The notes under the pieces: model-generated
The model's database searches: none
The model's input: only the letters and a program-made list of their open reading frames with translations
What the model was told of the DNA's origin: nothing
Shown here: positions 6,359-54,661 of the stretch, piece after piece
Position numbering within the stretch: position 1 is the stretch's first letter
How the letters are laid out: every line of letters begins with the position of its first letter
Translations under genes and position numbers: made by a program
Source of the DNA: Leptogorgia sarmentosa
Lineage: Eukaryota
Assembly (NCBI GenBank): GCA_964658305.1
Contig: OZ210884.1
Location: 7,564,001-7,628,000, forward strand
Direction: 5' to 3'
Length of the DNA stretch: 64,000 bases

Positions 6359-9300
6359 TTAGCAATTAATAAGAGCTCTAGCGTACTCAATATAACATTG
6401 TTCTGTTGTGGGATGGTTTCGTCCTAGAATTTTCGAATACATTTTGTACGCCAGGCGCAAATTATTGACCACAAGAGTTTTGTTTTTCATTTTAGCAGCT
6501 ATTCTGGCCACAGCGAGGTACAAATTACCTTCAACTTCGCTTCCATCTGGAGAAATATCTTTAACGACAAACAATGCGTCATAATAAAAAGTTAAAGCTT
6601 TTTCATAACACTCTTTAAACCAATAAGCTTTTGCAAGCTCCAGTCGACATTCAAATTCTGCAGATTTGTCAATGACGTCATGAGAAAGTTTTGGGAGCTG
6701 CAGTAATGCGTGACCAAGAGACTCAATTGCTGCATCATATTCCCGCATTCCATTAAAAATACGACCTTTCAAGACATGACACCGAAAGATAGATCGGTGT
6801 TTTCTACATTCTGGGAGTGATTCCGCAATTTCGGTAGCTCGTTCAATTGCTTCCCCCGCCAGTTTAAACTTCCCAACCTCAACTAAGGTTCTCACGATTT
6901 TATCGTAACATTTAATAATGCCATTCCGTAAAAAGACATCACCTAGCATTATTTGGTCCAACGTTATATTAAAAGCTTTTTTAAGGGACTCCAGACCACA
7001 ATCATGGTCCCCAGACTTAAATTTCTTCGCAGCTAATTTCAAATGCAATATTTTCAAAAATGGTTTCATTTCTTGTTTATCTGCATGTGTAGCACTATCA
7101 AACAATTCAGTATACAACTTTTCATCTACCTCCATATCCAGTATTTTGTAACAGGTAAGGAGTTGTACCTGTTCGTCATTGCAATCCGCACAAAATTGAA
7201 GTCCAGTTTGAAGAACATTCAGACTTTCAGTTTTGTTGCCAAGACAGTCATGCACATGTGCAATAACATTGTAACACATAATGACAAAACTCGACGAACA
7301 GCGCTTGTCCGCAGAGAGTTTCACACATATTTCCAAAGCTTGCTGAAATGTCGCTAGCGCTAAAGTGAAGTCATTAAACTGGTACTGTGCCATGCCCAGA
7401 ATCAAAAGAACTTCAGCAATTTCTTTAGTATCTTCATTGGATGATTTCCTTCTTAGTCTAAGTGCTTCTTCAACTGATTCAATGGCTAATTTAGATTTGT
7501 TCATGTATCTGTATACTCCTCCTTTTTCAACATATGCTTTGGACAGGATGTCCATACCATCATCAGTGATTTCCAAAATTCCAATAACCTGATCAAATGC
7601 ATCAAGAGCAGCAGAATAATTCTCCGCAGCTGTCTCAGCCTGGCCCAATTTAAAGAAACAAAACGCGGTGTCTTTGTGTTGTTTCCCATTGAGTTGTAGT
7701 GAAAGGTCAAGAGCGTTACGACATGTCTCAACTTTGTCAATATTCTTTTGTGGATACATATCATCTTCCATATTCAATTTCAATGCATAGCAGTTCAAAA
7801 GCCGCTGAGACAATTGAGGCCTAACTTGATGAGAGAAACTGGGAAATGCGGACAATTCAGACTTTAAAGACTTGTCCAAAAGAACTATCTTCTCATCCAA
7901 AAGAAATTCTTGTTTAAAAATTTTACAGAGGATGGCGGAAATAATATCACTATACATGACCATTGAAAATAAATAATGTGAATTACCAAGCGGCTTGTTG
8001 TCTAGCTGTTGCTCGAAGCTATGCAAAAGGTTTAAGAATTGCGTTGTTGTTTCATCATTTACAAATGCATTTGACCACCAAAACAGAAGAAGGATAAACA
8101 ATATTAATTGCTCTCCTTTAGATTCGTTCAGTCCCGATAACGAAGATTGCTCACAATCATTAATTAAAAAAAGACTTCGGTTACCAATTTCGTCACAAAC
8201 CTCGCTCGCTTTTCGACTGAAGTCGTTTGACTTGCTGTCCTCTTTCAAGTCAGTGTAATACAGAACAAGAAGCTGCAGACATAAGCATTTTATAAATTGA
8301 TGGTCAGGGCGCTCTGACAAACCATCAAGATGTTTTTCGATTTGTTCAACACCTGATTTCCTGTTTCCTTTGACAATGAGTGAAATTCCTTCATAACAAC
8401 CTAGTTTCGCTGCACTACCATCCGAAGACAACAAGACGTCTTCACGGATTTGTTCAGGAATGTTTGAGTGTATATCCGCGACAAGACAAGAAAAGACAAT
8501 ACGACCAAAATACTTGCTGATGTACAACTTGGAGCAATCGTATTCCTGGGCAATACATTTTTCTATAGCTGAATCATACAGATTGGGAATAAACAGTGAT
8601 GACTCGCACGGCAAATCAATCAGAAATAGAAATATTTCACACTTAGACAAAATGCGAACGAGATCTTGCAACATAGTTGTCAGAGACTGACCCATAGCAG
8701 TTGACAGATGCTCCAGCGTGTCTTGCAGTTGGGGACTCTCAATCGACTTTCCTGCCAGGAAATCGTCATTAAACTTTTCAAAAAGAAGTAAGTAATAACT
8801 ACAAAAGCGAAGTCTAGAAGAATTGAGAACATTCTCAAAATCACTTTCTTTTGCTTTTTCCACGACAAACGAATAAATAAGAGGATGGATAGAGTAACTC
8901 TCTCCACTGGAATCTTCATCAATTAACGATTTCTTGACAAGTGTTTTAAGGCAACGTGCGCTTTTCACAACACCTATTTCCGCAGAAAGAACCTTGACAG
9001 CGGCGTCCTTAGTTATTCTGGAGGACCTGAACACTGTTAATGAAATCAATGAATGTTTGTCAGTTATCGTCAGCTGCTCAAACGGAATCTCAAATAATCT
9101 TTTTATGTTTTTCTCGTATGGACTGTCTATCTCCCCCAGTAAATCTCCCGAAAAGCCTAGCTCTTCAAGTATTACATTCGCCATATCTTCAGTGACATTT
9201 TCAACTAACGAAGCAACAAGTTTCATCGCCAGAGGAACATGAGAACAAATTTCAGTCACTTTCGCCACAACATTTTCCGAAATTTTAGGAAGAAGTTGAC

Positions 9301-9852
9301 GAACAAATTTTACAGACGAAACTGGATGGAGGGGTCGAATTCGGATGTTTTGAAAACCATTGATTTGAACGCACGTATAATCCAAAATCTCTCTCGTTGT
9401 ACAGATAATATTAATATTAGCATTAGTGTCTAGCAATTCTTCGAATAAACGCGATAGAGTGGCTGAACCTCTTTCAACGGACAAAAGATCATCAAGGTTA
9501 TCAAATATGAGAAATACTGGACAAGAAATTTCTCTAAAAATACTTACTAGCTTGTCAATAGGTTTTAGACCAAGATCTACTAAGCTACATTTAAAAATAC
9601 TTAAAAGTTTTGATAAAAAATCGTCCACTGTGTTAATACCTTGCAATTTGAAAAAGTAAACAGGATACCCAAGAGAAACAAGATGATGTGCTGCTCCAAT
9701 GGCTGTTGATGTTTTACCAAATCCAGGCGATCCCCAAATGTTCAACAGTCGTGTTGATTGGTCAGTTATGAGGTTCGTAATTTTTTCAACTTCGACTTCC
9801 CTGCCAGTAAAGAAAGGGACAGCACTTGGAACGTATGGCTTGGGTAATGTCT
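6359..9852 (-). CDS. HEPN-STAND-TPR gene 1, exon 2 (NB-ARC-type ATPase, winged helix, TPRs); spliced product ~1419 aa
   Basis: Acceptor tcttttAG|AGACA (phase 1). Motifs in order: PFFTGRE, Walker A GSPGFGKT, Walker B FLIFDNLDD, sensor ICTTR, GxP-like SHVPLA, LVKKSLI and MHD-like SIHPL. TPR units follow (LGMAQ..ALATFQQALEI). Open to the stop at 6359. Confidence 0.92.
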
Positions 9853-10235
9853 CTAAAAGATAAATTATACAATAACTATATTATCACCATACATTTCTAC
9901 AAACGTTTCTCTGAGCGTATGCACCCCCGAGCAAGCAGAAAAACTGGTTGCACGTCAACAGAGACGATATTTTATCATTAGGTAGTTGAAGTTTGACTAC
10001 CGATGCTAATATCAAGATAACCAACTATCCATTCGCTTCGCTAGAAAAAAAGGTTTGGAAGTCTCTCGCATAGCGATGTTAGGCTGGCTTTGAATGTCGC
10101 CAATAAAGACCAAATAAACTTATTCTGAAAATATGTACTTTTTGTTCACAAAAAACGTCTTATGTAATGTCAAAACTTGTTTGTTTCGGCGCTACTTTAT
10201 TCGTTTTGATAACTTACAGTATCGCTTTAAACCAA

Positions 10236-10790
10236 CTACTAAAATGACAAACGGAAGTTGGAACATCGGTATCGGTATATTGGTATCGGAAGTAACACAG
10301 TCTTAATGATTCTTGGAGTGTATATTTCACGTTTGTAGTTTCTTCATAAAAAAGTCTTCATTAAAAGAATCCATTGAAACTCAGAAATCACAATGAGATA
10401 TTCTGGCAAGAACTACAGTACAGTACAGTACATCCAAGGAAAAACTATCATGTTATACCTGCTATATTTCCTTTTTCAACCAAGTTCAACTTTTTAATCA
10501 TCTGCTCCACATTCTCTATTTTCTCCGTTTGTTTTTCCACTACTAAAATGACAAACGGAAGTTGGAACATCGGTATCGGTATATTGGTATCGGAAGTAAC
10601 ACAGTCTTAATGATTCTTGGAGTGTATATTTCACGTTTGTAGTTTCTTCATCAGTAAAAAAGTCTTCATTAAAAGAAGTTTTATGTAAAAATATAAAAAT
10701 CCATTGAAACTGAATCAATTGATTCCTGAATCACAATGAGATATTCTGGCAAGAACTGCAGTACAGTACATCTAAAGAAAAACTATCATG
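10236..10790. repeat. Intronic tandem duplication (~300 bp) in gene 1 that includes a copy of the exon 1 3' end; equivalent in gene 2 at ~24348-24880
   Basis: ctactaaaatgacaaacggaagttggaacatc occurs at ~10236 and ~10540. The exon-end sequence cctgctatatttcc..ttctccgtttg occurs at 10459-10537 and again from 10799. Confidence 0.9.
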
Positions 10791-10798
10791 TTATATAC

Positions 10799-11564
10799 CT
10801 GCTATATTTCCCTTTTCAACCAAGTTCAACTTTTTCATCATCTGCTCCACATTCTCTATTTTCTCCGTTTGTTTCTCTGTCTGTTCTTCAATAGAAGATA
10901 ATTTCTGCTCAATATTCTCGTGAAACATACTGATAGCTTGTAACTCCTTTATACGACTTTCCTCCAGTTTCTGAACTTTCTCTGTAGGAAAATCATCTTC
11001 GCTCATTTGACCGATAACGTCAACAAAACTGGTATCAATCTTCATTGCCGTTAAAGCGTTGATTACCAGCTTTACATAATCATCAAAGTCAGTTTTAACT
11101 ATTTCTGGTTTTGGTGAATGGCAAAGTTTGTTTCTCAATAATCGCAGTTGATCAATTGCCAAAGCGTAGGTTTCATCATGATTTCCTGTTGAGCTTTGAA
11201 CTGAAGAATGAAAAGAACCTGGAACTGGCTTCACTTTCTTCAAATATAAATCGTTCAATGTTGAACCCTTGCTACTCGGAGCACCAAATGTTTTGGCATA
11301 GATTGTTGCTTTAAACAAAGCTGTACAATCCCATTCTTCAATTGATTTCCCTGTTGGCATATCAGTTTTTCCACCTTCAGATGTGAGAAGCAAGTTTCGT
11401 ACTGTAATGCTGTCATCCCAGGGAATGAATCCTGGTTTCATCGAAACTTTACTGTCCCACATGGTGACAAAAATTTCACGCAACACCTTGGGAAACTCAT
11501 CGAGAACAAGTGTAGAAAACTTAAAGAAATTCAATTGTTCCTTAGAAAATGGTTTTGCTGCCAT
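10799..11564 (-). CDS. HEPN-STAND-TPR gene 1, exon 1 (DZIP3/hRUL138-like HEPN domain plus coiled coil)
   Basis: ATG at 11564. Contains WDCTALF and DQLRLLRNKLCH (R-x4-H HEPN motif) and an E/K/Q-rich helical tail. Donor GCAG|GTATA is phase 1, matching the exon 2 acceptor. Confidence 0.88.
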
Positions 11565-11754
11565 TGCGCCTGGGTGTGAAATCTAGACCATTTTTCTTCT
11601 TCTAGTTGTAGGAACTACATAAATCTACAAAAGCAATTAAAATATATGGAAAATATTTGTTCAATAACGGTATGAAAACATACGGTATCTCTTACAACAT
11701 GAAAATAATTGGATTGGCTAAGCAATTTACCGAAATGAAGAAGAATAGAGATAA

Positions 11755-20467: not shown

Positions 20468-23400
20468 TTAGCAGTTAATAAGAGCTCTAGCGTACTCATT
20501 ATAACATTGTTCTGTTTTGGGATGGTTTCTTCCTAGAATTTTCGAATACATTTTGTACGCCAGCCGCAAATTATTTACCACGAGACTTTTGTTTTTCATT
20601 TTAGCAGCTATTCCGGTCACTACGAGGTACAAATCACCTTCACCTTCGCTTCCTTCTGGAGAAATATCTTTAACGACAGACAATGAGGCATAATAAGAAG
20701 TTAAAGCTTTTTCATAAGACTCTTTAAACCAATAAGCTTTTGCAAGCTCCAGTCGACATTCAAGTTCTTCAGATTTGTCAATGACGTCATGAGAAAGTTT
20801 TGGGAGCTGCAGTAATGCGTTACCAAGAGACTCAATTGCTGCATCATATTGCCGCATGCCATTAAAAAGACGACCTTTCAAGACATGACACCGAAAGATA
20901 GATCGGTGTTTTCTACATTCAGGGAGTGATTCCGCGATTTCGGTAGCTCGCTCAATTGCTTCCCCCGCCAATTTGAACTTCCCAACCTCAAATAAGGTTC
21001 TCACGATTTTACAGTACCATTCAATAATGTTATTCCGGAAAAGGACATCACCAAGCATTATTTGGTGCAACGTTATATTAAAAGCTTTTTCAAGGGACGC
21101 CAGACCAGAATTGTGGTTTCCAGACTCAAATTCCTTCGCAGCTAATCTCAAATGCATTATTTTCAAAAATGGTTGCATTTCTTCTTTAATTGCATGTGTA
21201 GCACTATCAAACAATTCAGTATACAACTTTTTATCTACCTCCATATCCAGTAGTTGGTGACAGATAGCGAGTTGTACGCATTCGTCATTGCAATCGGCAC
21301 CCAATTGAAGTTCAGTTTGAAGAACATTCAGACTTTCAGTTTTGTTGCCAAGACAGTCATGCACTCGTGCGATAGCATTGTAACACATAATGACTAAACT
21401 CAACGAACAGCGCTTGTCGGCAGAGAGTTTCAAACATATTTCCAAAGCTTGCTGAAATGTCGCTAGCGCTGAAGTGAAGTCATTAAACTGTAACTGTGCC
21501 ATGCCCAGCCAAAAAAGAACGTCAGCAATTTCTTCAGTATCTTCACCGGATGATTTCCTTCTTAGTCTAAGTGCTTCTTCAAAAGATTCAATGGCTAATT
21601 CAGATTTGTTCATGTATCTGTATACTCCTCCTTTTTCAATATATGCTTCGGCTAGGATATCAATTTCTCTACTGTTCCCGTCATCAGAGGTTTCCAAAAT
21701 TCCAATAACCTGATCAAATGCATCAAGAGCAGCACTAAAATTTTCAGCAGCTTTCTCAGCCTTGCCCATCTCAAGATAACAAAACGCACTCGCTTCATGT
21801 TGTTTTCCATTGAGTTTTAGTGAGAGGTGAAGCGCTTTACGACATGTCTCCACTATTTCAAGATTTTTTTTTGGATTCAATGTTTCCTCCATGGACATTT
21901 TTATCGTATAGCAATACAGAAGTCGCTGAGACAATCGAGGCCTAAACTCATGAGATGTCAATTCTGACTTTGTAGACTTGTCCAAAAAATTGATCTTTTC
22001 ATCCAAAAGAAATTCTTGCCCAGCAATTCGGCCAAGAATGGCTGAATTACAATCACAGAACGTTTCCAATGAAAATAAATAACGTGAATTCCTAAGGCCA
22101 TTATTGCTTCCTAGCTGTTGCTCGAGTATGCTCATAAGGTTTAAGAGATGCGTTGCTATCTCACCACTTACAAATGCTTCTGACCAGGAAACCAGAAGAT
22201 GAACAAACAATATTAATTGTTCGCCTTTACATTCGTTTTGTCCCGATAACGAAGATTGCTCGCAGTCATTAATTAAAAAAAGATTATAATTACCAATTTC
22301 GTCACAAACTTCGATCGCTTTTCTACTGAAGTTGTTTGACTTGCTGTATTCTTTCAAATCAGTGTAATACATTGCAAGAAGCTGCAGACATAAACATTTT
22401 ATCAGTTGTTGTTCAGGGCATTTTGCCAAACCGTCAAGATGTTTCTCAATTAGTTCAATACCTGATTTACGATTTCCTTTAAAAATAAGCGAAATTCCTT
22501 CATAACTACCTAGTTTTGCTGCACTACCATCCGTTGACAACATAACATTTTCACGTACTTGCTCAGGTATTTCTGAGTCTGTCTTTGAGACGAAGAAAGA
22601 AGAGATAACACCACGAAAATATTTGCTGACATACAATTTTGAGCAATCGTATTCCTGTGCACTAAATCTTTCTATAGCAGAATCATACAGTTTGGGAATA
22701 AGCTCCAATGACGTCGACGGCAAATCAATCAGAAAAAGAAATATTTCACTTTTGGATAATATTCGACCGAGATCTTGCAAACTGCTTGTCAGAGACAGGC
22801 GCATAGCAGTTGATAGATGCTCCAGGGTGTCTTCCAGTTGGGGACTCTCAACCGACCTTCCAGCAAGGAAATCGTCATTGAACTTTTCAAAAAGAAGTAA
22901 GTAATAACTACAATAGCGATTTCTAGAAGAATTGACAACATTCTCAAAATCACATCCTTTTGCTTTTTCCACGACAAACGAATAAATAAGAGGATGGATG
23001 GAATAATTCCCTCCTCCGGAATCTTCATCAATTAACGATTTCTTGACAAGTGTTTTAAGGCTACGTGTGCTTTCCACAACCCCTATTTCCGCAGAAAGAA
23101 CTCCAACAGCCGCGTCCTTACTTATTCTTGAGGACCTGAACACGGTTAATGAAATCAATGCATGTTTGTCAGTTATCGTCAGCTGCTCAAACGGAATCTC
23201 AAATAATCTTTTTATGTTTTTGTCGTATGGACTGTCTATCTGCCCCAGTAAATCTCCCGAAAGACTTAGCTCTTCAAGTATTACATTCGCCATATCTTCA
23301 GTGTTGTTTTCGACCAATGAAGCAACAAGTTTCATCGCCAGAGGAACATGGGAACAAATTTCGGTCACTTTAGCCGCAACATTTTCCGGAAACGAAGGAA

Positions 23401-23961
23401 GAAGTTGACGAACAAATCCAACAGACGAAACTGGATGGAGGGGTCGAATTCGGATGCCTTGAAAACCTGCTATATGATCGCGCATGCTTTCTAAATGCTC
23501 CCTTGTTGTAAACATTAGATTGATGTTAATATTACTGTCCAACAACTCTTCAAATAAATTTCTTAGTTTAGCAGAACGACTATCGGACGACAGGAGATCA
23601 TCAAGGTTATCAAATATAAGGAAAATTTGACAAGAAATTTCTCTAAAAATACATACTAGTTTGTCGATAGGTTTCAGGCTATGATCAATTAAGTTGCCTC
23701 TGAAAATACCTAAAATCTTTGATAAAAATTCGTCTACTGTGTTAATACCTTGCAATTTGAAAAAATAAACAGGATACCCAAGAGAAACAAGATGATGTGC
23801 TGCTCCAATGGCTGTTGATGTTTTACCAAATCCAGGCGATCCCCAAATGTTCAACAGACGTATTGATTGGTCAGTTATGAGGTTCGTAATTTCTTCAATT
23901 TCGACGTCTCTACCAGTAAAGAAAGGGACAGTACTTGGAACATATGGCTTGGGTAATGTCT
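20468..23961 (-). CDS. HEPN-STAND-TPR gene 2, exon 2; spliced product ~1426 aa
   Basis: Same acceptor, phase and STAND/TPR motifs as gene 1; uninterrupted frame. Confidence 0.92.
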
Positions 23962-24886
23962 CTAAAAGATAAATTATACAATATAATTATATTCTCAGGC
24001 CCTACATTTGTGTCGATGTTTCTCTGAGCATATGTACCCCAAGCAAGCAGAAAAACTGGTTGCACGTCAACAAAGACGATATTTTATCATTAGGTAGTTG
24101 AAGTTTGACTACCGATGCTAATATCAAATAAACAACTACCCATTCGCTTCGCTAGAAAAAAAGGATTGGAAGTCACTCCCACACCGATGTTAGGCTGGCT
24201 TTGAATGTCGCCAATAAAGACAAAATAAACTTATTCTGAAAATATGTACTTTTTGTTCACAAAAAACGTCTTATGTAATGTCAAAGCTTGTTTGTTTTCG
24301 ACGCTACTTTATTCGTTTTGATAACTTACAGTATCGCTTTAAACCAACTACTAAAATGACAAACGGAAGTTGGAACATCGGTATCGGTATATTGGTATCG
24401 GAAGTAACACAGTCTTAATGATTCTTGGAGTGTATATTTCACGTTTGTAGTTTCTTCATAAAAAAGTCTTCATTAAAAGAATCCATTGAAACTCAGAAAT
24501 CACAATGAGATATTCTGGCAAGAACTACAGTACAGTACAGTACATCCAAGGAAAAACTATCATGTTATACCTGCTATATTTCCTTTTTCAACCAAGGTCA
24601 ACTTTTTAATCATCTGCTCCACATTCTCTATTTTCTCCGTTTGTTTTTCCACTACTAAAATGACAAACGGAAGTTGGAACATCAGTATATTGGTATCGGA
24701 AGTAACACAGTCTTAATGATTCTTGGAGTATATATTTCACGTTTGTAGTTTCTTCATAAAAAAGTCTTCATTAAAAGAAGTTTCATGTAAAAATTAAAAA
24801 TTCCAAACTAAAGAATCACAATGCGATATTCTGGCAAGAACTGCAGTACAGTACAGTGGATCTAAAGAAAAACTATCATGTTATAC

Positions 24887-25673
24887 CTGCTATATTTCCC
24901 TTTTCAACCAAGTTCAACTTTTTCATCATCTGCTCCACATTCTCTATTTTCTCCGTTTGTTTTCCCATTGAATTCTCTTGTTTCTCTGCCAATTCTTTAA
25001 TAGAAGATAATGTCTGCTCAATGTTCTCGTGAAACATACTGTTAGCTTGTAACTCCTTGATACGACATTCCTCCAGTTTCTGAACTTTCTCTGTAGGAAA
25101 ATCATCTTCGCTCATTTGACCGATAACGACAACAAAATTGGTATCAATCTTCACCGCCGTTAAAGCGTTGATTACCAGCTGTACATAAACATCAAAATCA
25201 GTTTTAACTACTTCTGGTTTTGGCGAATGGCAAAGTTTGTTCCTCAGTAATCGCAGTTGATCAATTGCCAAAGCGAAGGTCTCATCTTGATTTCCGGTTG
25301 AGCTTTGAACTGAAGAATGAAAAGAACCTGGAACTGGCTTTGCTTTCTTCAAATATAAGTCGTTCAATGTTGAACCCTTGCTACTCGGAGCACCAAATGT
25401 TTTGGCATAGATTGTTGCTTTAAACAAAGCTGTACAATCCCATTCTTCAATTGATTTCCCTGTTGGTATATCAGTTTTTCCACCTTCAGATGTGAGAAGC
25501 AAGTTTCGTACTGTAATGCTATCATCCCAGGGAATGAATCCTGGTTTCATCGAAACTTTACTGTCCCACATGGTGACAAAAATTTCACGCAACACCTTGG
25601 GAAACTCATCGAGAACAAGTGTAGAAAACTTAAAGAAATTCAATTGTTCCTTAGAAAATGGTTTTGCTGCCAT
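24887..25673 (-). CDS. HEPN-STAND-TPR gene 2, exon 1 (HEPN plus coiled coil)
   Basis: ATG at 25673, RNKLCH motif and phase-1 donor GCAG|GTATAA. Confidence 0.88.
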
Positions 25674-40113: not shown

Positions 40114-43100
40114 TTAGCAATTTATAAGAGCTCTAGCGTAGTCAATATAACATTGTTCTGTTTTGGGATGGTTTCTTCCTAGAATTTTCGAATACATTTT
40201 GTACGCCAGGCGCAAATTATTTACCACGAGACTTTTGTTTTTCATTTTACTTGCGATTGCGGCCACTGCGAAGTACAAATTACCTTCAACTTCGCTTCCT
40301 TCTGGGAAAATATCTTTAGCGACAGACAATGCATCATAATGAGAAGTTAAGGCTTTTTCATAAGACTCTTTAAACCAATAAGCTTTTGCAAGCCGCAGTC
40401 GACATTCAAATTCTTCAGATTTGTCAATGACGTCATGAGAAAGTTTTGGGAGCTGCAGTAATGCGTGGCCAAGAGACTCAATTGCTGCATCATATTCCCG
40501 CATTTCATTAAAAATACGACCTTTCAAGACATGACACTGAAAGATAGATGGGTGTTTTCTACATTCTGGGAGTGATTCCGCGATTTCGGTAGCTCGTTCA
40601 ATTGCTTCCCCCGCCAATTTAAACTTCCCAACCTCAACTAAGATTCTCACGATTTCACTGTACCATTCAATAATGCCATTCCGTAAATAGACATGACCTA
40701 GCATTATTTGGTCCAACGTTATATTAAAAGCTTTTTTAAGGGACTCCAGACCAGAATTATGGTTTCCAGACTCAAATTTCTTCGCAGCTAATCTCAAATG
40801 CAATATTTTCAAAAATGGTTGCATTTCTTCTTTAATCACATGTGTAGCACTATCAAACAATTCAGTATACAACTTTTCATCTACCTCCGCATCCAGTAAT
40901 TGGCTACAGATAACGTGTTGTACGAGTTCGTCATTGCAATCCGCACCCAATTGAAGTCCAGTTTGAAGAACATTCAAACTTTCAGTTTTGTTGCCAAGAC
41001 GGTCATGCACTCGTGCGATAAAATTGTAACACATAATGACAAAACTCGACGAACAGCGCTTGTCGGCAGAAAGTTTCACATATATTTCCAAAGCTTGCTG
41101 TAATGTCGCTAGCGCTGAAGTGAAGTCATTGAACTGGTGCTGTGCCATGCCCAGCCACAAAAGAACTTCAGCAATCTCTTCAGTATCTTCACCGGATGAT
41201 TTCCTTCTTAGTCTAAGTGCTTCTTCAAGTGATTCAATGGCTAATTCAGATTTGTTCATGTAACTGTATACTTCTCCTTTTTCAATATATGTTTTGGCCA
41301 GGATGTCAATTTCTCTACTGTTCCCGTCATTAGAGGTTTCCAAAATTCCAATAACATGATCAAATGCATCAAGAGCAGCACTAAAATTTTCAGCAGCTTT
41401 CTCAGCCTCGCCCATCTCAAGATAACAAAACGCACTCGCTTCATGTTGTTTTCCATAGAGTTTTAGTGAGAGGTGAAGCGCTTTACGACATGTCTTCACT
41501 ATTTCAAGATTTTTTTTTGGATTCAATGTTTTGTCCATGTACATTTTTATTGCATAGCAATTCAGAAGTCGCTCAGACAATCGAGGCCTAAAATCATGAG
41601 ATGTCAATTCTGACTTTGTAGACTTGTCCAAAAAATTGATCTTTTCATCCAAAAGAAATTCTTGCCCAGCAATTCGGCCAAGAATGGCTGAATTACAATC
41701 ACAGTACATTACCAAAGAAAATAAATATCGTGAATTCCTAAGGCCATTGCTTCCTAGCTGTTGTTCAAGCATGCGCAAAAGGTTTAAGAGATGCGTTGCT
41801 ATCTCACCACTTACAAATGCTCTTGACCAGGAAACCAGAAGATGAACAAACAATATTAATTGTTCGCCTTTACATTCGTTTTGTCCCGATAACGAAGATT
41901 GCTCGCAGTCATTAATTAAAAAAAGATTATAATTACCAATTTCGTCACAAACTTCGATCGCTTTTCTACTGAAGTTGTTTGACTTGCTGTATTCTTTCAA
42001 ATCAGTGTAATACAGAACAAGAAGCTGCAGACATAAACATTTTATCAGTTGTTGTTCAGGGCATTTCGCCAAACCATCAAAATGTTTTTCAATTAGTTTA
42101 ATACCTGATTTACGATTTCCTTTTGAAATAAGCGAAATTCCTTCATAACTACCTAGTTTTGCTGCACTACCATCCGTTGACAACATAACATTTTCACGTA
42201 CTTGTTCAGGTATTTCTGAGTCTGTGTTTGAGACGAAGAAAGGAGAGATAACACCACAAAAATATTTGCTGACATACAATTTTGAGCAATCGTATTCCTG
42301 TGCACTAAATCTTTCTATAGCAGAATCATACAGTTTGGGAATAAGCTGCAATGACGTCGACGGCAAATCAATCAGAAAAAGAAATATTTCACTTTTGGAT
42401 AATATTCGACCGAGATCTTGCAAACTGCTTGTCAGAGACAGGCGCATAGCAGTTGATAGATGCTCCAGGGTGTCTTCTAGTTGCGGACTCTCAACCGACA
42501 TTCCAGCAAGGAAATCGTCATTGAACTTTTCGAAAAGAAGTAAGTAATAACTACAATAGCGATTTCTAGAAGAATTGACAACATTCTCAAAATCACATCC
42601 TTTTGCTTTTTCCACGACAAACGAATAAATAAGAGGATGGATGGAATAATTCTCTCCTCCGGAATCTTCATCAATTAACGATTTCTTGACAAGTGTTTTA
42701 AGGCTACGTGTGCTTTCCACAACCCCTATTTCCGCAGAAAGAACTCCAACAGCCGCGTCCTTACTTATTCTAGAGGACCTGAACACGGTTAATGAAATCA
42801 GCGCATGTTTGTCAGTTATCGTCAGCTGCTCAAACGGAATCTCAAATAATCTTTTTATGTTTTTCTCGTATGGACTGTCTATCTCCCCCAGTAAATCTCC
42901 CGAAAAGCTTAGCTCTTCAAGTATTACATTCGCCATATCTTCAGTGACATTTTCAACTAACGAAGCAACAAGTTTCATCGCCAGAGGAACATGAGAACAA
43001 ATTTCAGTCACTATAGCCACAACATTTTCCGAAATTTTAGGAAGTAGTTGACGAACAAATTTTACAGACGAAACTGGATGGAGGGGTCGAATTCGGATGT

Positions 43101-43604
43101 TTTGAAAACCGCCGATTTGAACGCACGTATTGTCCAAAATCTCTCTCGTGGTACAAATAATATTAATATTAGCATTAGTGTCTAGCAATTCTACGAATAA
43201 ACGCGATAGAGTGGCTGAACCTCTTTCAACGGACAAAAGATCATCAAGGTTATCAAATATGAGAAATACTGGACAAGAAATTTCTCTAAAAATACATACT
43301 AGTTTGTCGATAGGTTTTAGGCTATGATCAATTAAGTTGCCTCTGAAAATACCTAAAAGTTTTGATAAAAATTCGTCTACTGTGTTAATACCTTGCAATT
43401 TGAAAAAGTAAACAGGATATCCAAGAAAAACAAGATGATGTGCTGCTCCAATGGCTGTTGATGTTTTACCAAATCCAGGCGATCCCCAAATGTTCAACAG
43501 TCGTGTTGATTGGTCAGTTATGAGGTTCGTAATTTTTTCAACTTCGGCGTCTCTACCAGTGAAGAACGGGACAGCACTTGGAATATATGGCTTGGGTAAA
43601 GTGT
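40114..43604 (-). CDS. HEPN-STAND-TPR gene 4, exon 2; spliced product ~1424 aa
   Basis: Acceptor cattttAG|ACACT (phase 1), all STAND motifs and TPRs, uninterrupted frame. Confidence 0.92.
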
Positions 43605-44340: not shown

Positions 44341-45124
44341 CTGCTATATTTCCCTTTTCAACCAAGTTCAACTTTTTCATCATCTGCTCTACATTCTCTA
44401 TTTTCTCCGTTTGTTTTCCCATTGAATTCTCTTGTTTCTCTGCCAATTCTTTAATAGAAGATAATGTCTGCTCAATGTTCTCGTGAAACATACTGATAGC
44501 TTGTAACTCCTTTATACGACATTCCTCCAGTTTCTGAACTTTCTCTGTAGGAAAATCATCTTCGCTCATTTGACCGATAACGTCAACAAAACTAGTATCA
44601 ATCTTCATTGCCGTTAAAGCGTTGATTACTAGCTGTACATAAACATCAAAATCAGTTTTAAATATTTCTGGTTTTGGCGAATGGCAAAGTTTGTTTCTCA
44701 GTAATCGCAGTTGATCAATTGCCAAAGCGTAGGTTTCATCTTGATTTCCTGTTGAGCTTTGAACTGAAGAATGAAAAGAACCTGGAACTGGCTTCACTTT
44801 CTTCAAATATAAATCGTTCAATGTTGAACCCTTGCTACTCGGAGCGCCAAATGTTTTGGCATAGATTGTTGCTTTAAACAAAGCTGTACAATCCCATTCT
44901 TCAATTGATTTCCCTGTTGGTATATCAGTTTTTCCTTCAGATGCGAGAAGCAAGTTTCGTACTGTAAAGCTGTCATCCCAGGGAATGAATCCTGGTTTCA
45001 TCGAAACTTTACTGTCCCACATGATGACAAAAATTTCACGCAACACCTTGGGAAACTCATCGAGAACAAGTGTGGAAAACTTAAAGAAATTCAATTGTTC
45101 CTTAGAAAATGGTTTTGCTGCCAT
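44341..45124 (-). CDS. HEPN-STAND-TPR gene 4, exon 1 (HEPN plus coiled coil)
   Basis: ATG at 45124, RNKLCH motif and phase-1 donor. Confidence 0.88.
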
Positions 45125-48100: not shown

Positions 48101-49769
48101 AAATGTGTTCATGTCTGATGAGCACATACAACCTTTGAAACATTTTCTATCATTATCATAATTCAAATCGTTCAGGAAAATTATTGAAAAAGATTGGAAA
48201 AGGTCTCAGAATAATAGACAAACATTGCCACATCTTTCAACAACATTGCTATAAGATCAAGCAAAAACAGGAACGAAATTATCCAACTCAGCGTTTGTCT
48301 ATTTGTATTTTGCAAATATTCGCAAACTTCTTGGAAACCGAAAGTTAGAAAATTTCCCCACTGACACAAACTACGTGTAAGAAAATCAGAGAAGAAGACT
48401 GTGACACTTTTTACAAGTTTCCATTGAAAAAATTATGTTTTCTTGACAAACTGAACATCTTAAAGCTAAGTTAATCCGTCCCTGTCTTCACCTGAAACTA
48501 TAACGAAATGTTTGAAATGTCTGCTAGTTAAATTAAATTATACGATACTTAATAAAGGATAATGGCAATAAAAATAATTTAATATAAAAGTAATATTAAT
48601 TATATTCTCCAAACCAAAATCTTATTGAAGAATTTTTGCCTTTTTTGCATTAATGATATTATCGCTGAAAAATAAAAATAAAAATTCCACTGCATTCCGC
48701 CATCTTATTGGATAGCCTACCATTGTTAGATATCTATACGAACGTCACAAACAGCGCAAGTAGTTCTGTACTTTGACCTACTCTTGCGTTACGGTTAGTA
48801 GCTTAACGTAAAACTATTTACTTTTCACTTTTAAAGTGTCTATACCGTTGTTGTGAGGTTGATCAAAATTAATTATGAAATACGACAAAACATTTTAGAT
48901 CGCGAAGTTACTATTTGCAACATGAATTTGTAAGAATTTTCCGTAAAACAAATTCTGGCCAATAATAACTTCGGAAAACCACGGACAAAATCACTCTTTT
49001 ATTAAAAAATATTCTTAGCAACCGACGGTTGTTAGATTGGTTGATCGATCAACAAAAAACGCGATCCTTCATTCCACCCCATTCCAGTCTAATCTTTTGA
49101 ATTCAACTTTTATAAAATATGAAATAGAACTTCCTCGCCTCCCGCTAACGTGCCGCTTTCTCTGAAAGTCTCACAGGATGATAACAGTGTTGAACGTCAA
49201 GATGACTTTTTCAGAGATGAAATAGTGACAACAAATTTTGGTCTCATGTTCCTCGATATAAAAATCATGGAAAGTTCTCATTCTGAATAAATGACGTTAC
49301 CGACATTGGAAGATGCACACTATAGAGGCGATATTTTTCTTAGAGGAACTTCTTTCCACATATAGCTACTGTACTGAAATAATTAAGTTATTATTGGCTT
49401 TCAATAGGGTATCTGTAATGCATGCATCTTTTGTTGTTGTTGTTGTCGAGAATTGGATTCTAAAAATCAGAAATTCCGATAACCGTGTTTCATTTTCCAT
49501 GGCCGACTGCCTCGATTAGCATCGTGGTTATTTCAGTAAGCCTCCGCTTATAATAAAACACTTGTGGTAATTGCTTAAATTTATTTTAAAGCAGCGTGTT
49601 CTTTTTGATGTACCTGGTATAACTGAATGCAAGAAAATATAAAAATGCCTTTTAATTTCACAAAGATGTAGAAAATTATCGAATGAAGAATGATACCACA
49701 AATACTGTTATAGTTAAATTTCTAACCCGTTGATTAAACATTGCTGCAATAAAGTTGATTACATGCATC

Positions 49770-52700
49770 TTAGCAATTAATAAGAGATCTAGCGTACTCA
49801 ATATAACATAGTTCTGTTTTGGGATGGTTTCTTCCTAGAATTTTCGAATACATTTTGTACGCCAGCCGCAAATTATTTACCACGAGACTTTTGTTTTTCA
49901 TTTTAGCAGCTATTCTGGCCACTGTGAGGTACAAATCACCTTCACCTTCGCTTCCTTCTGGAGAAATATCTTTAACGACAGACAATGCATCATAGTAAGA
50001 AGTTAAGGCTTTTTCATAAGACTCTTTAAACCAATAAGCTTTTCCAAGCTGCAGTCGACATTCAAGTTCTTCAGATTTGTCAATGACGTCATGAGAAAGT
50101 TTTGGGAGCTGCAGTAATGCGTGACCAAGAGACTCAATTGCTGCATCATATTCCCGCATTTCATTAAGAATGCCGCCTGTCAAAACATAGCAACGAAACA
50201 CCCAAAAATGTTGTATAAATTCTGGTAGCGATTCTGCTATCTTGGTAGCTCGGTCAACTGCCTTTTTCGCCAATTTACACTTTCCAGTCAAAAGTAAGAT
50301 CCTTGCCACTTCTACATAACATGCAACTGTGCTCTCCCGAGCAACGACATCACATAGCATTGTGTCGTCTAATTTTATATCAAAAGCTTCCTGAAGAGAC
50401 GCCAGGCCATCTTCATGCTTTCCGGACTTAAGATGCCTTGCAGCTAATTTCAAATGCATTATTGGTAAAAGTGGCCCTTTAAATTTTTCCTTTATCAGAC
50501 GTACAGCATTGTTAAGCCAATCTATGTAAAAGCTTTCATCAACCTCCTTATCTAAAAGTTGGAGACAGATAAAAAATTGTGCTTCTTCGTCATTGCGATC
50601 CACACTCAAATTAAATGCGGTTTTAAGAACATTTACATTTTTAATGTGGTCGCCAAGATCGTCGTGCACTTGTGCTATCATATAGTAAGCATGTACTAGT
50701 CTAGAGGGGTTGCCAGCATTGGGGAGTTTCACCATTATTTCTAAAGCTCGTTGAAATGTTGCTAGGGCTGAAGTGAACTTTTTAAACCGGCGCTGTGCCA
50801 TGCCTAGAGAGAAAAGAACGATAGCAATTCTTGCGCTCTCCTTGCTCAATGATTTCTCTCTTATTCTAAGTGCTTCTTCAAAGGATTGAATGGCTAATTC
50901 AGAATTGTGCATACCGAACGTGTGTACTTTTCCTTTCTCAGCATAGGCATTGGCTAAGATGTCATTAGAACTGCTTATCCTGTCATCATGATCAGTGATT
51001 TCCAAAATTTCAATAACTTGATCAAATGCATCAAGAGCAGCACAATAATTCTCCGCAGCTGTCTCAGCCTGGCCCAATTTAAAGTAACAAAACGCGGTGT
51101 GTTCGTGTTGTTTTCCCTTTAATTGTAGTGAAAGGTCAAGAGCGTTGCGACATGCCTCAACTTTGTCAACATTCTTTTTTGGACACCTTTCTTCCTTGTC
51201 CATATTCAATTTCAATGCATAGCAGTTCAAAAGCCGCCAAGACAATTCAGGCCTAACTTGATGAGAGAAACTGGGAAATGTGGACAATTCAGACTTTAAA
51301 GACTTGTCCAAATGATTTATCTTCTCATCCAAAAGAAATTCTTGTTGAGCAATTTTACAGAGGATAGCCGAAATATTATCACTATACATGACCATTGAAA
51401 ATAAATAATGTGAATTACCAAGCGGCTTGTTGTCTAGCTGTTGCTCTAAGCTGTGCAAAAGGTCTAAGAATTGCGTTGTTGTTTCATCACTTACAAATGC
51501 TTTTGACCAGGAAAACAGAAGATAGACAGACAATATTAATTCCACTCCTCTACATTCGTTTTTTAGTAATAGCGAAGATTGCTCACATTCACAAATCAAA
51601 AAAAGACTGCGGTTACCAATTTCGTCACAAATCTCGCTCGCTTTACGACTGAAGTCGTTTGACTTTCTGTCCTCTTTCAAGTCAGTGTAATACAGAGAAA
51701 GAAGCTGCAGACATAAGCATTTTATAAATTGTTGTTCAGAGCGCTCTGACAAACCATCAAGATGTTCTTTAATCAGTTCAACACCTGATTTGCTGTTTCC
51801 TTCGAGAATGAGTGAAATTCCTTCATAACAACCTAGTTTCGCTGCACTACCATCCGAAGACAACAAGACATCTTCACGAATTTGTTCAGGTATGTCTGAG
51901 TAGATATCCTTGACAAAAAAAGAAACGACAATACGACCAAAATACTTGCTGACGTACAACTTTGAGCAATCGTATTCCTGGGCAATACATTTTTCTATAG
52001 CTGCATCATACAGATTGGGAATAAACACTAATGACTCGCACGGCAAACCAATGAGAAAAAGAAATACTTCACACTTAGATAATATGCGAACGAGATCTTG
52101 CAAAATAATTGTCAGAGACTGACCCATAGCAGTTGACAGATGCTCCAGTGTGTCTTCCAGTTGGGGACTCTCAATCGACTTTCCTGCCAGGAAATCGTCA
52201 TTAAACTTTTCAAAAAGAAATAAGTAATAACTACAAAAGCGAAGTCTAGAAGTATTGAGAACATACTCAAAATCACTTCCTTTTGCTTTTTCCACGACAA
52301 ACGAATAAATAAGCGGATGGATAGAGTAATTCTCTCCACTGGAATCTTCATCAATTAACGATTTCTTGACAAGTGTTTTAAGGCAACGTGCGCTTTTCAC
52401 AACACCTATTTCCGCAGAAAGAACCTCGACAGCGGCGTCCTTACTTATTCTAGAGGACCTGAACACGGTTAATGAAATCAATGCATGTTTGTCAGTTATC
52501 GTCAGCTGCTCAAACGGAATCTCAAATAATCTTTTTATGTTTTTCTCGTATGGACTGTCTATCTCCCCCAGTAAATCTCCCGAAAAGCCTAGCTCTTCAA
52601 GTATTACATTCGCCATATCTTCAGTTACATTTTCAACTAACGAAGCAACAAGTTTCATCGCCAGAGGAACATGAGAACAAATTTCAGTCACTTTCGCCGC

Positions 52701-53284
52701 AAAATTTTCCGAAATTTTAGGAAGAAGTTGACGAACAAATTTTACAGACGAAACTGGACGGAGGGGTCGAATTCGGATGTTTTGAAAACCATTGATTTGA
52801 ACGCTCGTATTGTCCAAAATCTCTCTCGTTGTACAAATAATATTAATATTAGCATTAGTGTCTAGCAATTCTACGAATAAACGCGATAGAGTGGCTGAAC
52901 CTCTTTCAACGGAAAAAAGATCATCAAGGTTATCAAATATGAGAAATACTGGACAAGAAATTTCTCTAAAAATACTTACTAGCTTATCAATAGGTTTTAG
53001 ACCATGATCCACTAAACTACATTTAAAAATACCTAAAAGTTTTGATAAAAAATCGTCCACTGTGTTAATACCTTGCAATTTGAAAAAATAAACAGAATAC
53101 CCAAGAGAAACAAGATGATGTGCTGCTCCAATGGCTGTTGATGTTTTACCAAATCCAGGCGATCCCCAAATGTTCAACAGTCGTGTTGATTGGTCAGTTA
53201 TGAGGTTCGTAATTTTTTCAACTTCGACTTCCCTGCCAGTGAAGAACGGGACAGCACTTGGAACATATGGCTTGGGTAATGTCT
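49770..53284 (-). CDS. HEPN-STAND-TPR gene 5, exon 2; spliced product ~1444 aa
   Basis: Same acceptor and motifs as the other genes; divergent central TPR block; uninterrupted frame. Confidence 0.92.
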
Positions 53285-53841
53285 CTAAAAGATAAATTAT
53301 ACAATAATTATATTCTCACTATACATTTCTACCGACGTTTCTCTGAGCATATGTACTCCGAGCAAGCAGAAAAACTGGTCGCATGCACGTCAAGAGAGAC
53401 GTAGTAGTTGAAGTCAGGCTGGCTCTGAATGTCGCCAATAAAGACAAAATAAACTTATGAAACTCATCTTTTTATAATTTCTGTGCACTGTTAGTCCATT
53501 TTGATCACTAGCAACTAATTCTAATTCTAAAAATATGTACTTTTTGTTCACTAAAAAACATCTTATATAATGTCAAAGCTTGTTTGCTTTTCCACTACTT
53601 AAATGACAAACGGAAGTTGGAACATCAGTATATTGGTATCGGAAGTAACACAGTCTTAATGATTCTCGGAGTATATATTTCACGTTTGTAGTTTCTTCAT
53701 AAAAAGTCTTCATTAAAAGAAGTTTCATGTAAAAATTAAAAAGTTCCATTGAAACCGAATCAATTGATTCCTGAATCACAATGAGATATTCTGGCAAGAA
53801 CTACAGTACAGTGGATCTAAAGAAAAACTATCATGTTATAC

Positions 53842-54661
53842 CTGCTATATTTCCCTTTTCAACCAAGTTCAACTTTTTCATCATCTGCTCTACATTCTCT
53901 ATTTTCTCCGCTTGTTTTTCCATTGAATTCTCTATTTTCTCCGTTTGTTCTTCCATTGAATTCTTTTGTTTTTCTGTCCATTCTTCAATAGAAGATAATT
54001 TCTGCTCAATATTCTCGTGAAACATACTGATAGCTTGTAACTCCTTTATACGACATTCCTCCAGTTTCAGAACTTTCTTTGTAGGAAAATCATCTTCGTT
54101 CATTTGACCGATAACGTCAACAAAACTGGTATTAATCTTCATTGCCGTTAAAGCGTTGATTACTAGCTGTACATAAATATCAAAGTCAGTTTTAACTATT
54201 TCTGGTTTTGGTGAATGGCAAAGTTTGTTTCTCAGTAATCGCAGTTGATCAATTGCCAAAGCGTAGGTTTCATCATGATTTCCTGTTGAGCTTTGAACTG
54301 AAGAATGAAAAGAACCTGGAACTGGCTTCACTTTCTTCAAATATAAATCGTTCAATGTTGAACCTTTCCTACTCGGAGCACCAAATGTTTTGGCAAAGAT
54401 TGTTGCTTTAAACAAAGCTGTACAGTCCCATTCTTTAATTGATTTCCCTGTTGGTATATCAGTTTTTCCACCTTCAGATGCGAGAAGCAATTTTCGTACT
54501 GTAATGCTGTCATCCCAGGGAATGAATCCTGGTTTCATCGAAACTTTACTGTCCCACATGGTGACAAAAATGTCACGCAACACCTTGGGAAACTCATCGA
54601 GAACAAGTGTAGAAAACTTAAAGAAATTCAATTGTTCCTTAGAAAATGGTTTTGCTGCCAT
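53842..54661 (-). CDS. HEPN-STAND-TPR gene 5, exon 1 (HEPN plus the longest coiled coil)
   Basis: ATG at 54661, RNKLCH motif, an extra 11-aa linker repeat and a phase-1 donor. Confidence 0.88.

What the first reader, a model, noticed from the sequence alone, without database searches (positions are those of the whole stretch)
6359..54661. Tandem array of HEPN-RNase / NB-ARC / TPR receptors: a candidate animal sensor-triggered ribonuclease immune system
Seen: five two-exon genes whose phase-1 splice joins the separately listed ~260 aa and ~1130 aa ORFs into single ~1420-1445 aa proteins. RNKLCH (R-x4-H), Walker A/B, TTR, GxP-like and MHD-like motifs are invariant across copies while the TPR region varies. 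Established: R-x4-H is the catalytic signature of HEPN RNases (RNase L/Ire1 KEN, Cas13, bacterial toxins), which form the active site at a dimer interface. STAND ATPases oligomerise on ligand binding. Effector-STAND-TPR is the layout of bacterial Avs antiphage proteins and many fungal NLRs, and HEPN-STAND fusions have been noted computationally in invertebrates. Inference: TPR ligand binding drives oligomerisation, dimerises HEPN and cleaves RNA, an enzymatic output that needs no death-fold adaptor. The architecture class is not wholly new, but I know of no functional characterisation of such an animal family.
Basis: partly seen in the sequence, partly recalled or inferred. Interest (0 to 1): 0.88.

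Follow-up and report, generated by a model that had tools for sequence, protein, structure and literature searches.

The report
Coral RNase-tipped immune receptor array
A stretch of what is likely a soft-coral genome holds five tandem copies (four intact, one broken) of a gene predicted to encode an immune sensor that carries its own RNA-cutting domain; this layout is already catalogued in corals, but no test of its activity turned up in the papers searched.

Summary
Mostly confirmed, with one correction. Five tandem minus-strand copies each have a phase-1 GT-AG intron between the two ORFs, but only four give whole proteins (1419, 1426, 1424, 1444 aa); copy 3 has an in-frame stop and a frameshift. 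Splicing was not seen in RNA, but a relative encodes both parts in one ORF (L001), and 37 of 80 longer relatives join the same two domains. Exon 1 is a divergent DZIP3-like HEPN domain plus coiled coil: it falls below Pfam's cut-off, a 70%-identical relative passes it, and R-N-x3-H is kept in 167 of 191 domains. Exon 2 is an NB-ARC-type STAND ATPase plus TPRs. Copies are recombinant mosaics with a faster-changing sensor. Nearest named relatives are octocorals. Best reading: a ligand-gated ribonuclease immune receptor (0.55); activity, dimer and ligand are untested. HEPN/NB-ARC/TPR is already listed for corals (PMC10236652, supplement), and the RNase idea is in print, so this is a new member of a known but untested kind. 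The scan noted a similar array in another genome (unchecked).

The parts
10799..11564 (-). Copy 1 exon 1: HEPN domain (about aa 1-190) + predicted coiled coil (aa 195-255)
   Evidence: Pfam HEPN_DZIP3 E 0.0096, below cut-off; AF2 model pLDDT 91.7; long terminal helix in the single-sequence model
11118..11135 (-). Copy 1 RNKLCH (R144-N145-x3-H149), predicted RNase motif at the end of helix 129-148
   Evidence: residue position (coordinates derived from it); helix; conservation
9853..10798 (-). Copy 1 phase-1 GT-AG intron, 946 nt; holds a duplicated exon-1 3' end
10459..10542 (-). Candidate in-frame cassette exon (81 or 84 nt, phase 1-1, no stop) that would lengthen the coiled coil by 27-28 aa
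   Evidence: splicing untested
6359..9852 (-). Copy 1 exon 2: NB-ARC-type STAND ATPase (Walker A 296, Walker B 370, TTR 407, VPLA 461, IHPL 577 in the joined model) + helical/TPR sensor
24887..25673 (-). Copy 2 exon 1 (HEPN + coiled coil)
24571..24654 (-). Candidate cassette exon in the copy 2 intron, as in copy 1
20468..23961 (-). Copy 2 exon 2 (STAND + TPR); joined protein 1426 aa
34627..35392 (-). Copy 3 exon 1, broken by an in-frame TAA at 35002-35000 (codon 131)
30395..33902 (-). Copy 3 exon 2, broken by a one-base frameshift near 31201; apparent pseudogene
44341..45124 (-). Copy 4 exon 1 (HEPN + coiled coil)
40114..43604 (-). Copy 4 exon 2 (STAND + TPR); joined protein 1424 aa
53842..54661 (-). 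Copy 5 exon 1 (HEPN + longest coiled coil, with a 33-nt tandem repeat at 53894-53993)
49770..53284 (-). Copy 5 exon 2 (STAND + TPR); joined protein 1444 aa; most divergent TPR block (about 69% DNA identity to the others over alignment columns 2401-3000)
1046..5306 (.). Copy of the inter-gene spacer of the repeat unit (also at about 16250-19197, 26301-29346, 36090-39065, 45724-48728, partly 55178-56361); the array may go on left of the window
   Evidence: self-BLASTN; no exon match in 1-6358

Best explanation
Four intact copies of a two-exon gene, likely from an octocoral, are predicted to encode a ~1420-1444 aa NLR-like receptor (divergent DZIP3-like HEPN domain, coiled coil, NB-ARC ATPase, helical/TPR sensor) that would act as a ligand-gated ribonuclease in cell-intrinsic defence. 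Shown here: the array, the splice signals and open frames, the domain families, motif conservation, purifying selection and mosaic exchange among copies. Inferred from STAND and HEPN biology: at rest the protein is a monomer with ADP in the NB-ARC domain and the TPR arm folded back. A foreign or infection-linked ligand binds the TPR arm and nucleotide exchange follows. The NB-ARC domains oligomerise, and the coiled coils bring HEPN domains together so that two R-N-x3-H motifs form one active site. RNA cleavage (host tRNA/rRNA/mRNA or invader RNA) then stops translation or kills the cell, with no death-fold adaptor needed. Tandem copying and exchange of sensor segments would vary what is recognised while the effector stays nearly the same.
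For: Fusion: L001 carries exon-1 (71%) and exon-2 (54%) homologues in one 630-aa ORF, with R-N at 144 and Walker A at 298 against 144 and 296 in copy 1. 37 of 80 longer relatives of exon 1 also match the STAND region and 21 of 80 also the TPR core. Four Paramuricea models join the exon-1 coiled-coil tail to the exon-2 start, three of them directly at the same place. HEPN: P0002 (Dendronephthya, 70% identical) passes Pfam HEPN_DZIP3 at 29.5 bits against a cut-off of 27. 47 of 84 aligned members hit that family at E<=1. Atlas ranks 2-3 are HEPN_DZIP3 clusters at 0.96. The motif sits at the end of a helix followed by a loop and another helix, as described for HEPN (PMC3710099). The top four VIA rows among Foldseek's matches are HEPN proteins (AbiF Z 5.7, rmsd 5.9, 145 aligned). 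R-N-x3-H is present in 167 of 191 domains that cover the motif. STAND: the family profile finds NRC2, AfsR, Apaf-1, Sr35 and the TPR-STAND PH0952 at E 3e-11 to 6e-9. Evolution: dN/dS is 0.35 (0.27-0.46) for aa 1-600 and 0.55 (0.46-0.66) for aa 601-1275. Recombinant mosaic: 234 nearby incompatible site pairs against a shuffle mean of 395, with 0 of 2000 shuffles as low. The same HEPN subfamily is fused to dsRNA-binding, dynamin, IRG-type GTPase and TPR-CHAT modules in other predicted proteins. Precedent: Avs7 uses TPR binding, tetramerisation and effector assembly (PMC13581612).
Against: No RNA, activity, dimer model or ligand was obtained. Exon 1 itself scores 16.2 bits against the HEPN_DZIP3 cut-off of 27. 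Fold matches are weak: Foldseek best E 1.2, and in the wide search no Z reached 8 and the top row was the non-HEPN adhesin SabA at Z 6.3. Exon 2 alone gives NB-ARC E 0.006-0.09, below cut-off, and exon 2 was not folded. Only 1 of 120 closest exon-2 relatives carries HEPN sequence in its predicted protein; most start at or inside the exon-2 boundary, which fits unspliced gene calls but was not shown to be so. 19 of 191 domains lack R or H. No region has a mean dN/dS above 1, so positive selection on the sensor is not shown. One of five copies is broken, and L001 is frameshifted twice downstream.
Confidence: 0.55

Rival explanations
1. Same switch and RNase output, but the trigger is a polymorphic self, conspecific or symbiont protein (allorecognition or guard role, like fungal NB-ARC-TPR incompatibility genes) rather than a pathogen pattern.
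For: Mosaic, fast-changing sensors in a tandem array fit either role. The Atlas's nearest STAND clusters are fungal (Basidiomycota) and bacterial NB-ARC proteins. Allo-incompatibility in colonial cnidarians is named as a cell-death context in PMC8195603.
Against: Relatives of the HEPN domain are fused to dsRNA-binding and IRG/dynamin-type GTPase modules, which point towards infection. No partner gene was seen in the window: no other ORF of 150 aa or more.
Confidence: 0.15
2. The coiled coil keeps the HEPN domains dimerised all the time. Activation is release of an inhibition (TPR arm or a helix blocking the site), and STAND oligomerisation is not what builds the active site.
For: A 61-79 aa coiled-coil-like tail follows HEPN in every intact copy. 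Relatives exist as HEPN + long coiled coil, or HEPN + TPR with no STAND match (e.g. P0024, P0041, P0061, P0066; P0104, P0134). A blocked site was modelled for the related human CXorf38 (10.64898/2026.05.28.728550).
Against: All ATPase motifs are kept in the intact copies and aa 256-600 are under purifying selection (dN/dS 0.34-0.36). The STAND-less relatives may be incomplete gene models.
Confidence: 0.13
3. The HEPN domain is a non-catalytic RNA-binding or adaptor module, and the receptor signals through partners rather than by cutting RNA.
For: H149 (73 of 83) is less conserved than Q139, R141 or W49. Some HEPN families act without catalysis (MtlR, Swt1; PMC3710099). No activity was shown for this family in the papers seen.
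Against: R144 is kept in 82 of 83 and N145 in 79 of 83 rows while residues 146-148 vary freely, the pattern of a catalytic motif. Conserved acidic residues (E23, D79, E131, D138) are present.
Confidence: 0.12
4. The two ORFs are separate genes or mostly unspliced: a small HEPN-coiled-coil protein and a STAND-TPR protein.
For: Exon 1 ends in a stop 3-4 codons past the donor, so intron retention would give a ~257-276 aa protein. 119 of 120 exon-2 relatives lack HEPN in their predicted proteins.
Against: All five introns keep GT-AG and phase 1. The relative L001 has no intron there. Named coral models are fused. The exon-2 frames have no start codon ahead of the Walker A motif.
Confidence: 0.05

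Closest known systems
[quoted passage not shown] 2023, PMC10236652, e.g. orthogroup OG0000193)
   Same: Same three-part layout. 9 of the first 28 NB-ARC rows shown (of 226) in Additional file 17 read DZIP3-like_HEPN / NB-ARC / TPR. Tandem duplication is the paper's theme.
   Different: Those HEPN domains are caught by InterPro/Pfam. This subfamily mostly is not: PF18738 is listed for 1 of 80 relatives (some long lists cut), and the best E among 84 members is 1.4e-4. It has a coiled-coil spacer. Whether it belongs to one of the paper's orthogroups, such as the 'noneDetectedN' NB-ARC-TPR rows of OG0000334, was not tested.
Anthozoan and bivalve HEPN_DZIP3-NACHT NLR expansions (PMC8260672; PMC9646362; PMC8662601)
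   Same: N-terminal DZIP3-like HEPN with Rx4H on a STAND NTPase, in lineage-specific arrays (17-83 genes per anthozoan; more than 50 in pearl oyster), with a proposed RNase role.
   Different: NB-ARC/AP-ATPase rather than NACHT, and TPR rather than LRR.
CXorf38 / DZIP3 HEPN families (Anantharaman et al. 2013, PMC3710099)
   Same: Animal HEPN families fused to NACHT, TPR, dsRBD and ankyrin, expanded in Nematostella and predicted to degrade RNA in defence. The Atlas lists both HEPN_DZIP3 and DUF4559 clusters as neighbours.
   Different: Exon 1 is below both Pfam cut-offs (DUF4559 E 0.033; HEPN_DZIP3 E 0.0096). No death-fold domain was found in these copies.
Bacterial Avs / antiviral STAND receptors (Avs7; PMC13581612)
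   Same: Effector-STAND-TPR layout. TPR binds the trigger and the oligomer scaffolds the nuclease effector. This is the working model used here.
   Different: Prokaryotic and phage-sensing, with a Cap4 DNase in Avs7. No PADLOC Avs model matched at E<=0.1, and no bacterial relative of this HEPN was found by a one-pattern scan. It works like Avs but is not a member.
Apaf-1, plant NB-ARC NLRs, AfsR and PH0952
   Same: Same NB-ARC/AP-ATPase module by profile search, E 3e-11 to 6e-9.
   Different: Different effectors (CARD, CC, TIR, DNA-binding) and sensors (WD40, LRR); only PH0952 and AfsR-type proteins share TPRs.

Membership tests
HEPN superfamily (DZIP3-like) | Rx4-6H motif with a polar residue after R | tested here: met
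   RNKLCH in 4 of 4 intact copies; R-N-x3-H in 167 of 191 relatives' domains covering the motif
HEPN superfamily (DZIP3-like) | Motif at the end of helix 3, before the loop to helix 4, in an all-helical domain | tested here: met
   AF2 model pLDDT 91.7: helix 129-148, loop, helix 157-173; description in PMC3710099. Helix numbering is my assignment.
HEPN superfamily (DZIP3-like) | Significant structural match to solved HEPN domains | tested here: inconclusive
   AbiF Z 5.6 (rmsd 6.0, 146 aligned), Cas13 Z 5.5 (4.5, 105), Csm6 Z 5.2 (4.0, 114). About 10 of 50 rows are HEPN-fold (HI0074 counted from recall), but SabA ranks first at 6.3 and no Z reaches 8. Foldseek E>=1.2.
Pfam HEPN_DZIP3 (PF18738) | Score at or above the gathering cut-off (27 bits) | tested here: not met
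   16.2 bits for exon 1; the 70%-identical P0002 reaches 29.5. So a divergent relative, not a formal member.
HEPN RNases | Dimer with a composite active site and R/H-dependent RNA cleavage | not testable with these tools
   No dimer model and no assay; the requirement is taken from 10.64898/2026.05.28.728550 and PMC3710099
NB-ARC / AP-ATPase STAND | Walker A, Walker B, sensor-1 (TTR), GxP-like and MHD-like motifs in order | tested here: met
   GSPGFGKT 296, LIFDNLDD 370, TTR 407, HVPLAM 460, YSIHPL 575 in copy 1; relatives show xVPLA and [MIV]H[KSPT]L[LI]. The motif names are from recall.
NB-ARC / AP-ATPase STAND | Profile relationship to solved NB-ARC proteins rather than NACHT | tested here: met
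   Profile A2: 19 of 20 hits are NB-ARC-type proteins (NRC2, AfsR, Apaf-1, Sr35, PH0952, Roq1 and others), one is Hsp104. Atlas hits 0.96-0.99, mostly NB-ARC. Relative P0103 (32% identical) passes Pfam NB-ARC; the window's own exon 2 does not.
NLR-like tripartite receptor | C-terminal repeat sensor | tested here: met
   TPR_12 E 7e-25 to 3e-29, above cut-off, in 3 of 3 exon-2 frames scanned. The helical stretch between the ATPase and the TPRs had no Pfam TPR match and was not folded.
NLR-like tripartite receptor | Ligand-induced oligomerisation that activates the N-terminal effector | not testable with these tools
   Inferred from STAND biology (PMC13581612)
Avs antiphage STANDs | Prokaryotic gene matching an Avs model, sensing phage proteins | tested here: not met
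   Intron-bearing gene with anthozoan relatives; no Avs model among PADLOC hits at E<=0.1

The most novel reading that the evidence does not exclude
Anthozoans carry a Pfam-invisible HEPN ribonuclease subfamily used as a plug-in effector on several self-assembling or RNA-sensing modules (NB-ARC-TPR, dynamin, IRG-type GTPase, dsRBD, TPR-CHAT). The NB-ARC-TPR arrays are a true animal counterpart of bacterial Avs: receptors whose sensor segments are reshuffled between tandem copies and that destroy RNA directly on binding an invader protein, with no adaptor or caspase.
Probability: 0.4. Interest if true: 0.75.

Novelty: new member of a known kind. Interest (0 to 1): 0.42.

Why it matters
HEPN-STAND fusions are among the commonest NLR-like proteins of corals and bivalves, and for over a decade they have been predicted to be RNases without a test that my searches could find. 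If the model holds, animals have NLR-type receptors with a built-in enzymatic output, as bacteria do. This array is a convenient test case: two exons, an intact catalytic motif, a confident model of the 200-aa domain, and four natural sensor variants on a near-constant effector. It also suggests that Pfam-based counts understate the repertoire, since most of this subfamily scores below the HEPN_DZIP3 cut-off. The array itself does not change what is known about the architecture.

Tried and rejected
Expression: no RNA holder listed among 6 runs. The four runs laid on 6001-26000 were contigs that cover the intergenic repeats; none of the 15 joints shown (31 more not shown) was at a predicted splice junction. 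This says nothing on splicing either way. No whole genome was held, so genome-wide copy number is unknown. The single-sequence AF2 model of exon 1 was poor (pLDDT 45) and was replaced by the alignment-based one. Sequence searches of PDB with the exon-1 alignment gave only coiled-coil noise, and with the single STAND sequence nothing under E 0.027. No dimer model was obtained, so the composite site is open. Bacterial/archaeal genomes: 5 pattern matches, 0 confirmed, with one peptide pattern only, so a weak negative. PADLOC and NCBIfam had no match to exon 1. Rfam: 0 matches in the window. Assembly artefact (haplotype duplication) rejected: exon-2 copies differ by up to ~30% in blocks and are mosaics. 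Positive selection on the TPR region considered but not shown: no region mean above 1, and single pairs reach 1.0-2.0 on few synonymous changes (Nei-Gojobori on four copies, which recombination distorts). CXorf38/DUF4559 considered as the family: weaker than DZIP3. Earlier findings by sequence and by genome: none.

Full report
Observation. The window (32-39% GC) has ten ORFs of 150 aa or more, all on the minus strand and all from one repeated gene. TBLASTN and self-BLASTN show five copies in a ~10-kb repeat unit that includes the spacer. Each copy has an ATG in the context MAAKPF, a donor after GGAAATATAGCAG and an acceptor ending TTTTAG. All five introns are phase 1. Joined, copies 1, 2, 4 and 5 are open for 1419, 1426, 1424 and 1444 aa. 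Copy 3 stops at codon 131 (TAA, 35002-35000) and has a one-base frameshift near 31201. So there are four intact genes and one apparent pseudogene, not five proteins.

Is the splice real? There is no direct RNA evidence. Indirect evidence is good. A 6114-bp contig (L001, the 1 confirmed locus among 218 pattern matches) holds exon-1 and exon-2 homologues in one ORF with no intron (71% and 54% identity). Its motif spacing is almost the same as in copy 1. It has two frameshifts further down, and I cannot tell whether it is a transcript, a retrocopy or an intronless paralogue. Of 80 longer relatives of exon 1, 37 also match the STAND region and 21 also the TPR core. From the other side the picture is less direct. 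Of the 120 best exon-2 relatives only 1 has HEPN sequence, 80 have an N-terminal extension of 40 aa or less, 33 start inside exon 2 and 7 have a longer extension. This fits gene calls made without splicing on genomic contigs, which I did not verify. Four Paramuricea models do carry the exon-1 coiled-coil tail ahead of the exon-2 start, three of them joined directly at the same place.

Exon 1. Pfam gave no HEPN hit for the whole exon at E<=0.1, only DUF4559 at E 0.033. For aa 1-200 it gave HEPN_DZIP3 at E 0.0096, 16.2 bits against a cut-off of 27. 47 of 84 aligned relatives hit the same family at E<=1. A Dendronephthya protein 70% identical over aa 1-237 passes the cut-off in the homologous stretch. 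The Atlas places HEPN_DZIP3 clusters at ranks 2-3 (0.96) and DUF4559 clusters next, with a recognition value of 2186, slightly under its 2300 guide. AlphaFold2 with an 84-row alignment gives an all-helical domain, pLDDT 91.7, with RNKLCH at the end of helix 129-148. Fold searches are suggestive only. Foldseek's best row is Csm6 at E 1.2. VIA's re-alignment puts four HEPN proteins on top, AbiF first at Z 5.7. The wide search has AbiF, Cas13 and Csm6 at Z 5.2-5.6 behind SabA at 6.3. AbiF, Cas13an, Swt1 and DZIP3 HEPNs are reported as structural neighbours (PMC12165695, one passage), which fits. Across 235 domain hits in 223 fetched proteins, 44 do not cover the motif. Of the other 191, 167 read R-N-x3-H, 5 more keep R and H, and 19 lack one of them. 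After the domain comes a 61-79 aa tail predicted as one long helix. The search of cluster representatives found 229 proteins at E<=0.001.

Exon 2. TPR_12 is strong in the three frames scanned, while STAND-type Pfam families are weak. NCBIfam's best matches are bacterial NB-ARC-TPR proteins and AfsR, all below cut-off. A 19-row family profile finds 20 solved sequences at E<=0.01, of which 19 are NB-ARC-type (NRC2, AfsR, Apaf-1, Sr35, PH0952, Roq1 and others). The Atlas agrees. The module is therefore NB-ARC/AP-ATPase, not NACHT. Exon 2 was not folded.

Origin and evolution. Every named relative is an anthozoan. In a 41-row tree of the HEPN domain (37 chosen relatives plus the four intact copies; copy 3 left out), the copies form one clade (100/96). 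It sits inside a branch with a Dendronephthya protein (100/98), within the octocoral rows. The source is thus likely an octocoral. dN/dS among the four intact copies is 0.35 for aa 1-600 and 0.55 for aa 601-1275, and 0.74 in the TPR core with an interval reaching 1.04. This shows constraint on both exons and a looser sensor, but not positive selection. The copies are mosaics. Copies 2 and 4 are 95-99% identical over exon-2 columns 801-1800 but 76% over 401-600. Copies 3 and 4 are 98-100% over 201-800 but 73-82% over 1201-2200. Copy 5 is about 69% to all others over 2401-3000. Among 293 informative sites, incompatible neighbours are far fewer than in 2000 of 2000 shuffles. Among 19 relatives chosen for unusual partners, the same HEPN subfamily is fused to dsrm, dynamin with ankyrin or kinase, IIGP GTPase, TPR-CHAT, Tudor and TRADD-N-STAND modules. 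These are predicted gene models and some fusions may be artefacts.

Mechanism. The shown parts are the anatomy, motifs, constraint and shuffling. The inferred parts are the resting ADP-bound state, ligand binding by the TPR arm, oligomerisation, HEPN dimer formation and RNA cleavage. They rest on Avs7, where TPR binding gives a tetramer that scaffolds the nuclease (PMC13581612, passages), and on the need of HEPN RNases to dimerise (10.64898/2026.05.28.728550, passages). TPR autoinhibition in PH0952 is recalled and comes from no call. I give this model 0.55. Rivals are an allorecognition or guard trigger (0.15), a pre-formed coiled-coil dimer released from inhibition (0.13), a non-catalytic HEPN (0.12) and unjoined exons (0.05).

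What is known. PMC3710099 (passages) lists DZIP3 and CXorf38 HEPNs fused to NACHT, TPR and dsRBD in cnidarians and proposes RNA degradation in defence. PMC8260672 (passages) counts 17-83 HEPN-NACHT proteins per anthozoan, 83 in Dendronephthya. PMC10236652 (passages and supplement rows) tabulates DZIP3-like_HEPN / NB-ARC / TPR in Acropora and Pocillopora: 9 of the 28 NB-ARC rows I saw, out of 226. Five of its 17 supplementary files were not searched. PMC9646362 (passages and section 4.3) and PMC8662601 (passages) state the RNase or RNA-sensor hypothesis and call for tests. PMC8195603 and 10.1101/2022.07.19.500537 (passages) list HEPN among STAND effectors. Ten searches listed no paper whose title or abstract opening reports a functional test of an animal HEPN-STAND protein. 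The library lacks most subscription papers, so this is not proof of absence. The scan's own index returned one unchecked note on a HEPN-like/NB-ARC/TPR array in another genome.

Verdict. A real, well-supported array of a catalogued but untested class. What this look adds is the broken third copy, the coiled-coil spacer and possible cassette exon, the mosaic history, and the finding that this HEPN subfamily mostly escapes Pfam. Novelty: new member of a known kind. Interest 0.42.

Noticed in passing
window 12604-16124: Non-autonomous LTR-like element in the copy 1-2 spacer. Two ~870-bp direct repeats 99% identical (12604-13476, 15245-16124) have TG...CA ends, ATTA on both flanks, TGG just after the first repeat and a purine tract before the second. 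The longest stop-free stretch between them is 79 aa. Very high contig depth and loose ends at 16124-16125 suggest a high-copy repeat.
   Followed up: partly
window 10235-10542 and 24347-24654: Copies 1 and 2 carry a duplication of the exon-1 3' end plus the start of the intron. It leaves a second donor behind an intronic AG and so a possible 81/84-nt in-frame cassette exon.
   Followed up: partly
window 15016-15159: Short palindromic element (arms 84% complementary) inside the LTR-like element; many loose contig ends at both borders, MITE-like.
   Followed up: no
window 62339-63109: 770-bp imperfect inverted repeat (69% self-complementary), possibly a foldback or MITE remnant.
   Followed up: no
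window 1192-1229, 26778-26815, 36569-36606: Identical 19-bp unit in two perfect tandem copies in three of the spacer repeats; it lies in the conserved block upstream of the genes and could be regulatory.
   Followed up: no
L001 339-4667: Intronless relative of the whole gene with two frameshifts (near 2200 and 2960-3000); retrocopy, transcript or low-coverage assembly error not resolved.
   Followed up: partly
proteins P0012, P0026, P0045, P0065, P0084, P0059, P0002: The same HEPN subfamily in predicted fusions with dsRNA-binding motifs, dynamin + ankyrin or kinase, TPR-CHAT, IIGP GTPase, TRADD-N + STAND and Tudor repeats.
   Followed up: partly
proteins P0232, P0241, P0255, P0258 (Paramuricea clavata): Gene models that begin inside the coiled coil and lack HEPN; either truncated models or real HEPN-less sensor forms.
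   Followed up: no
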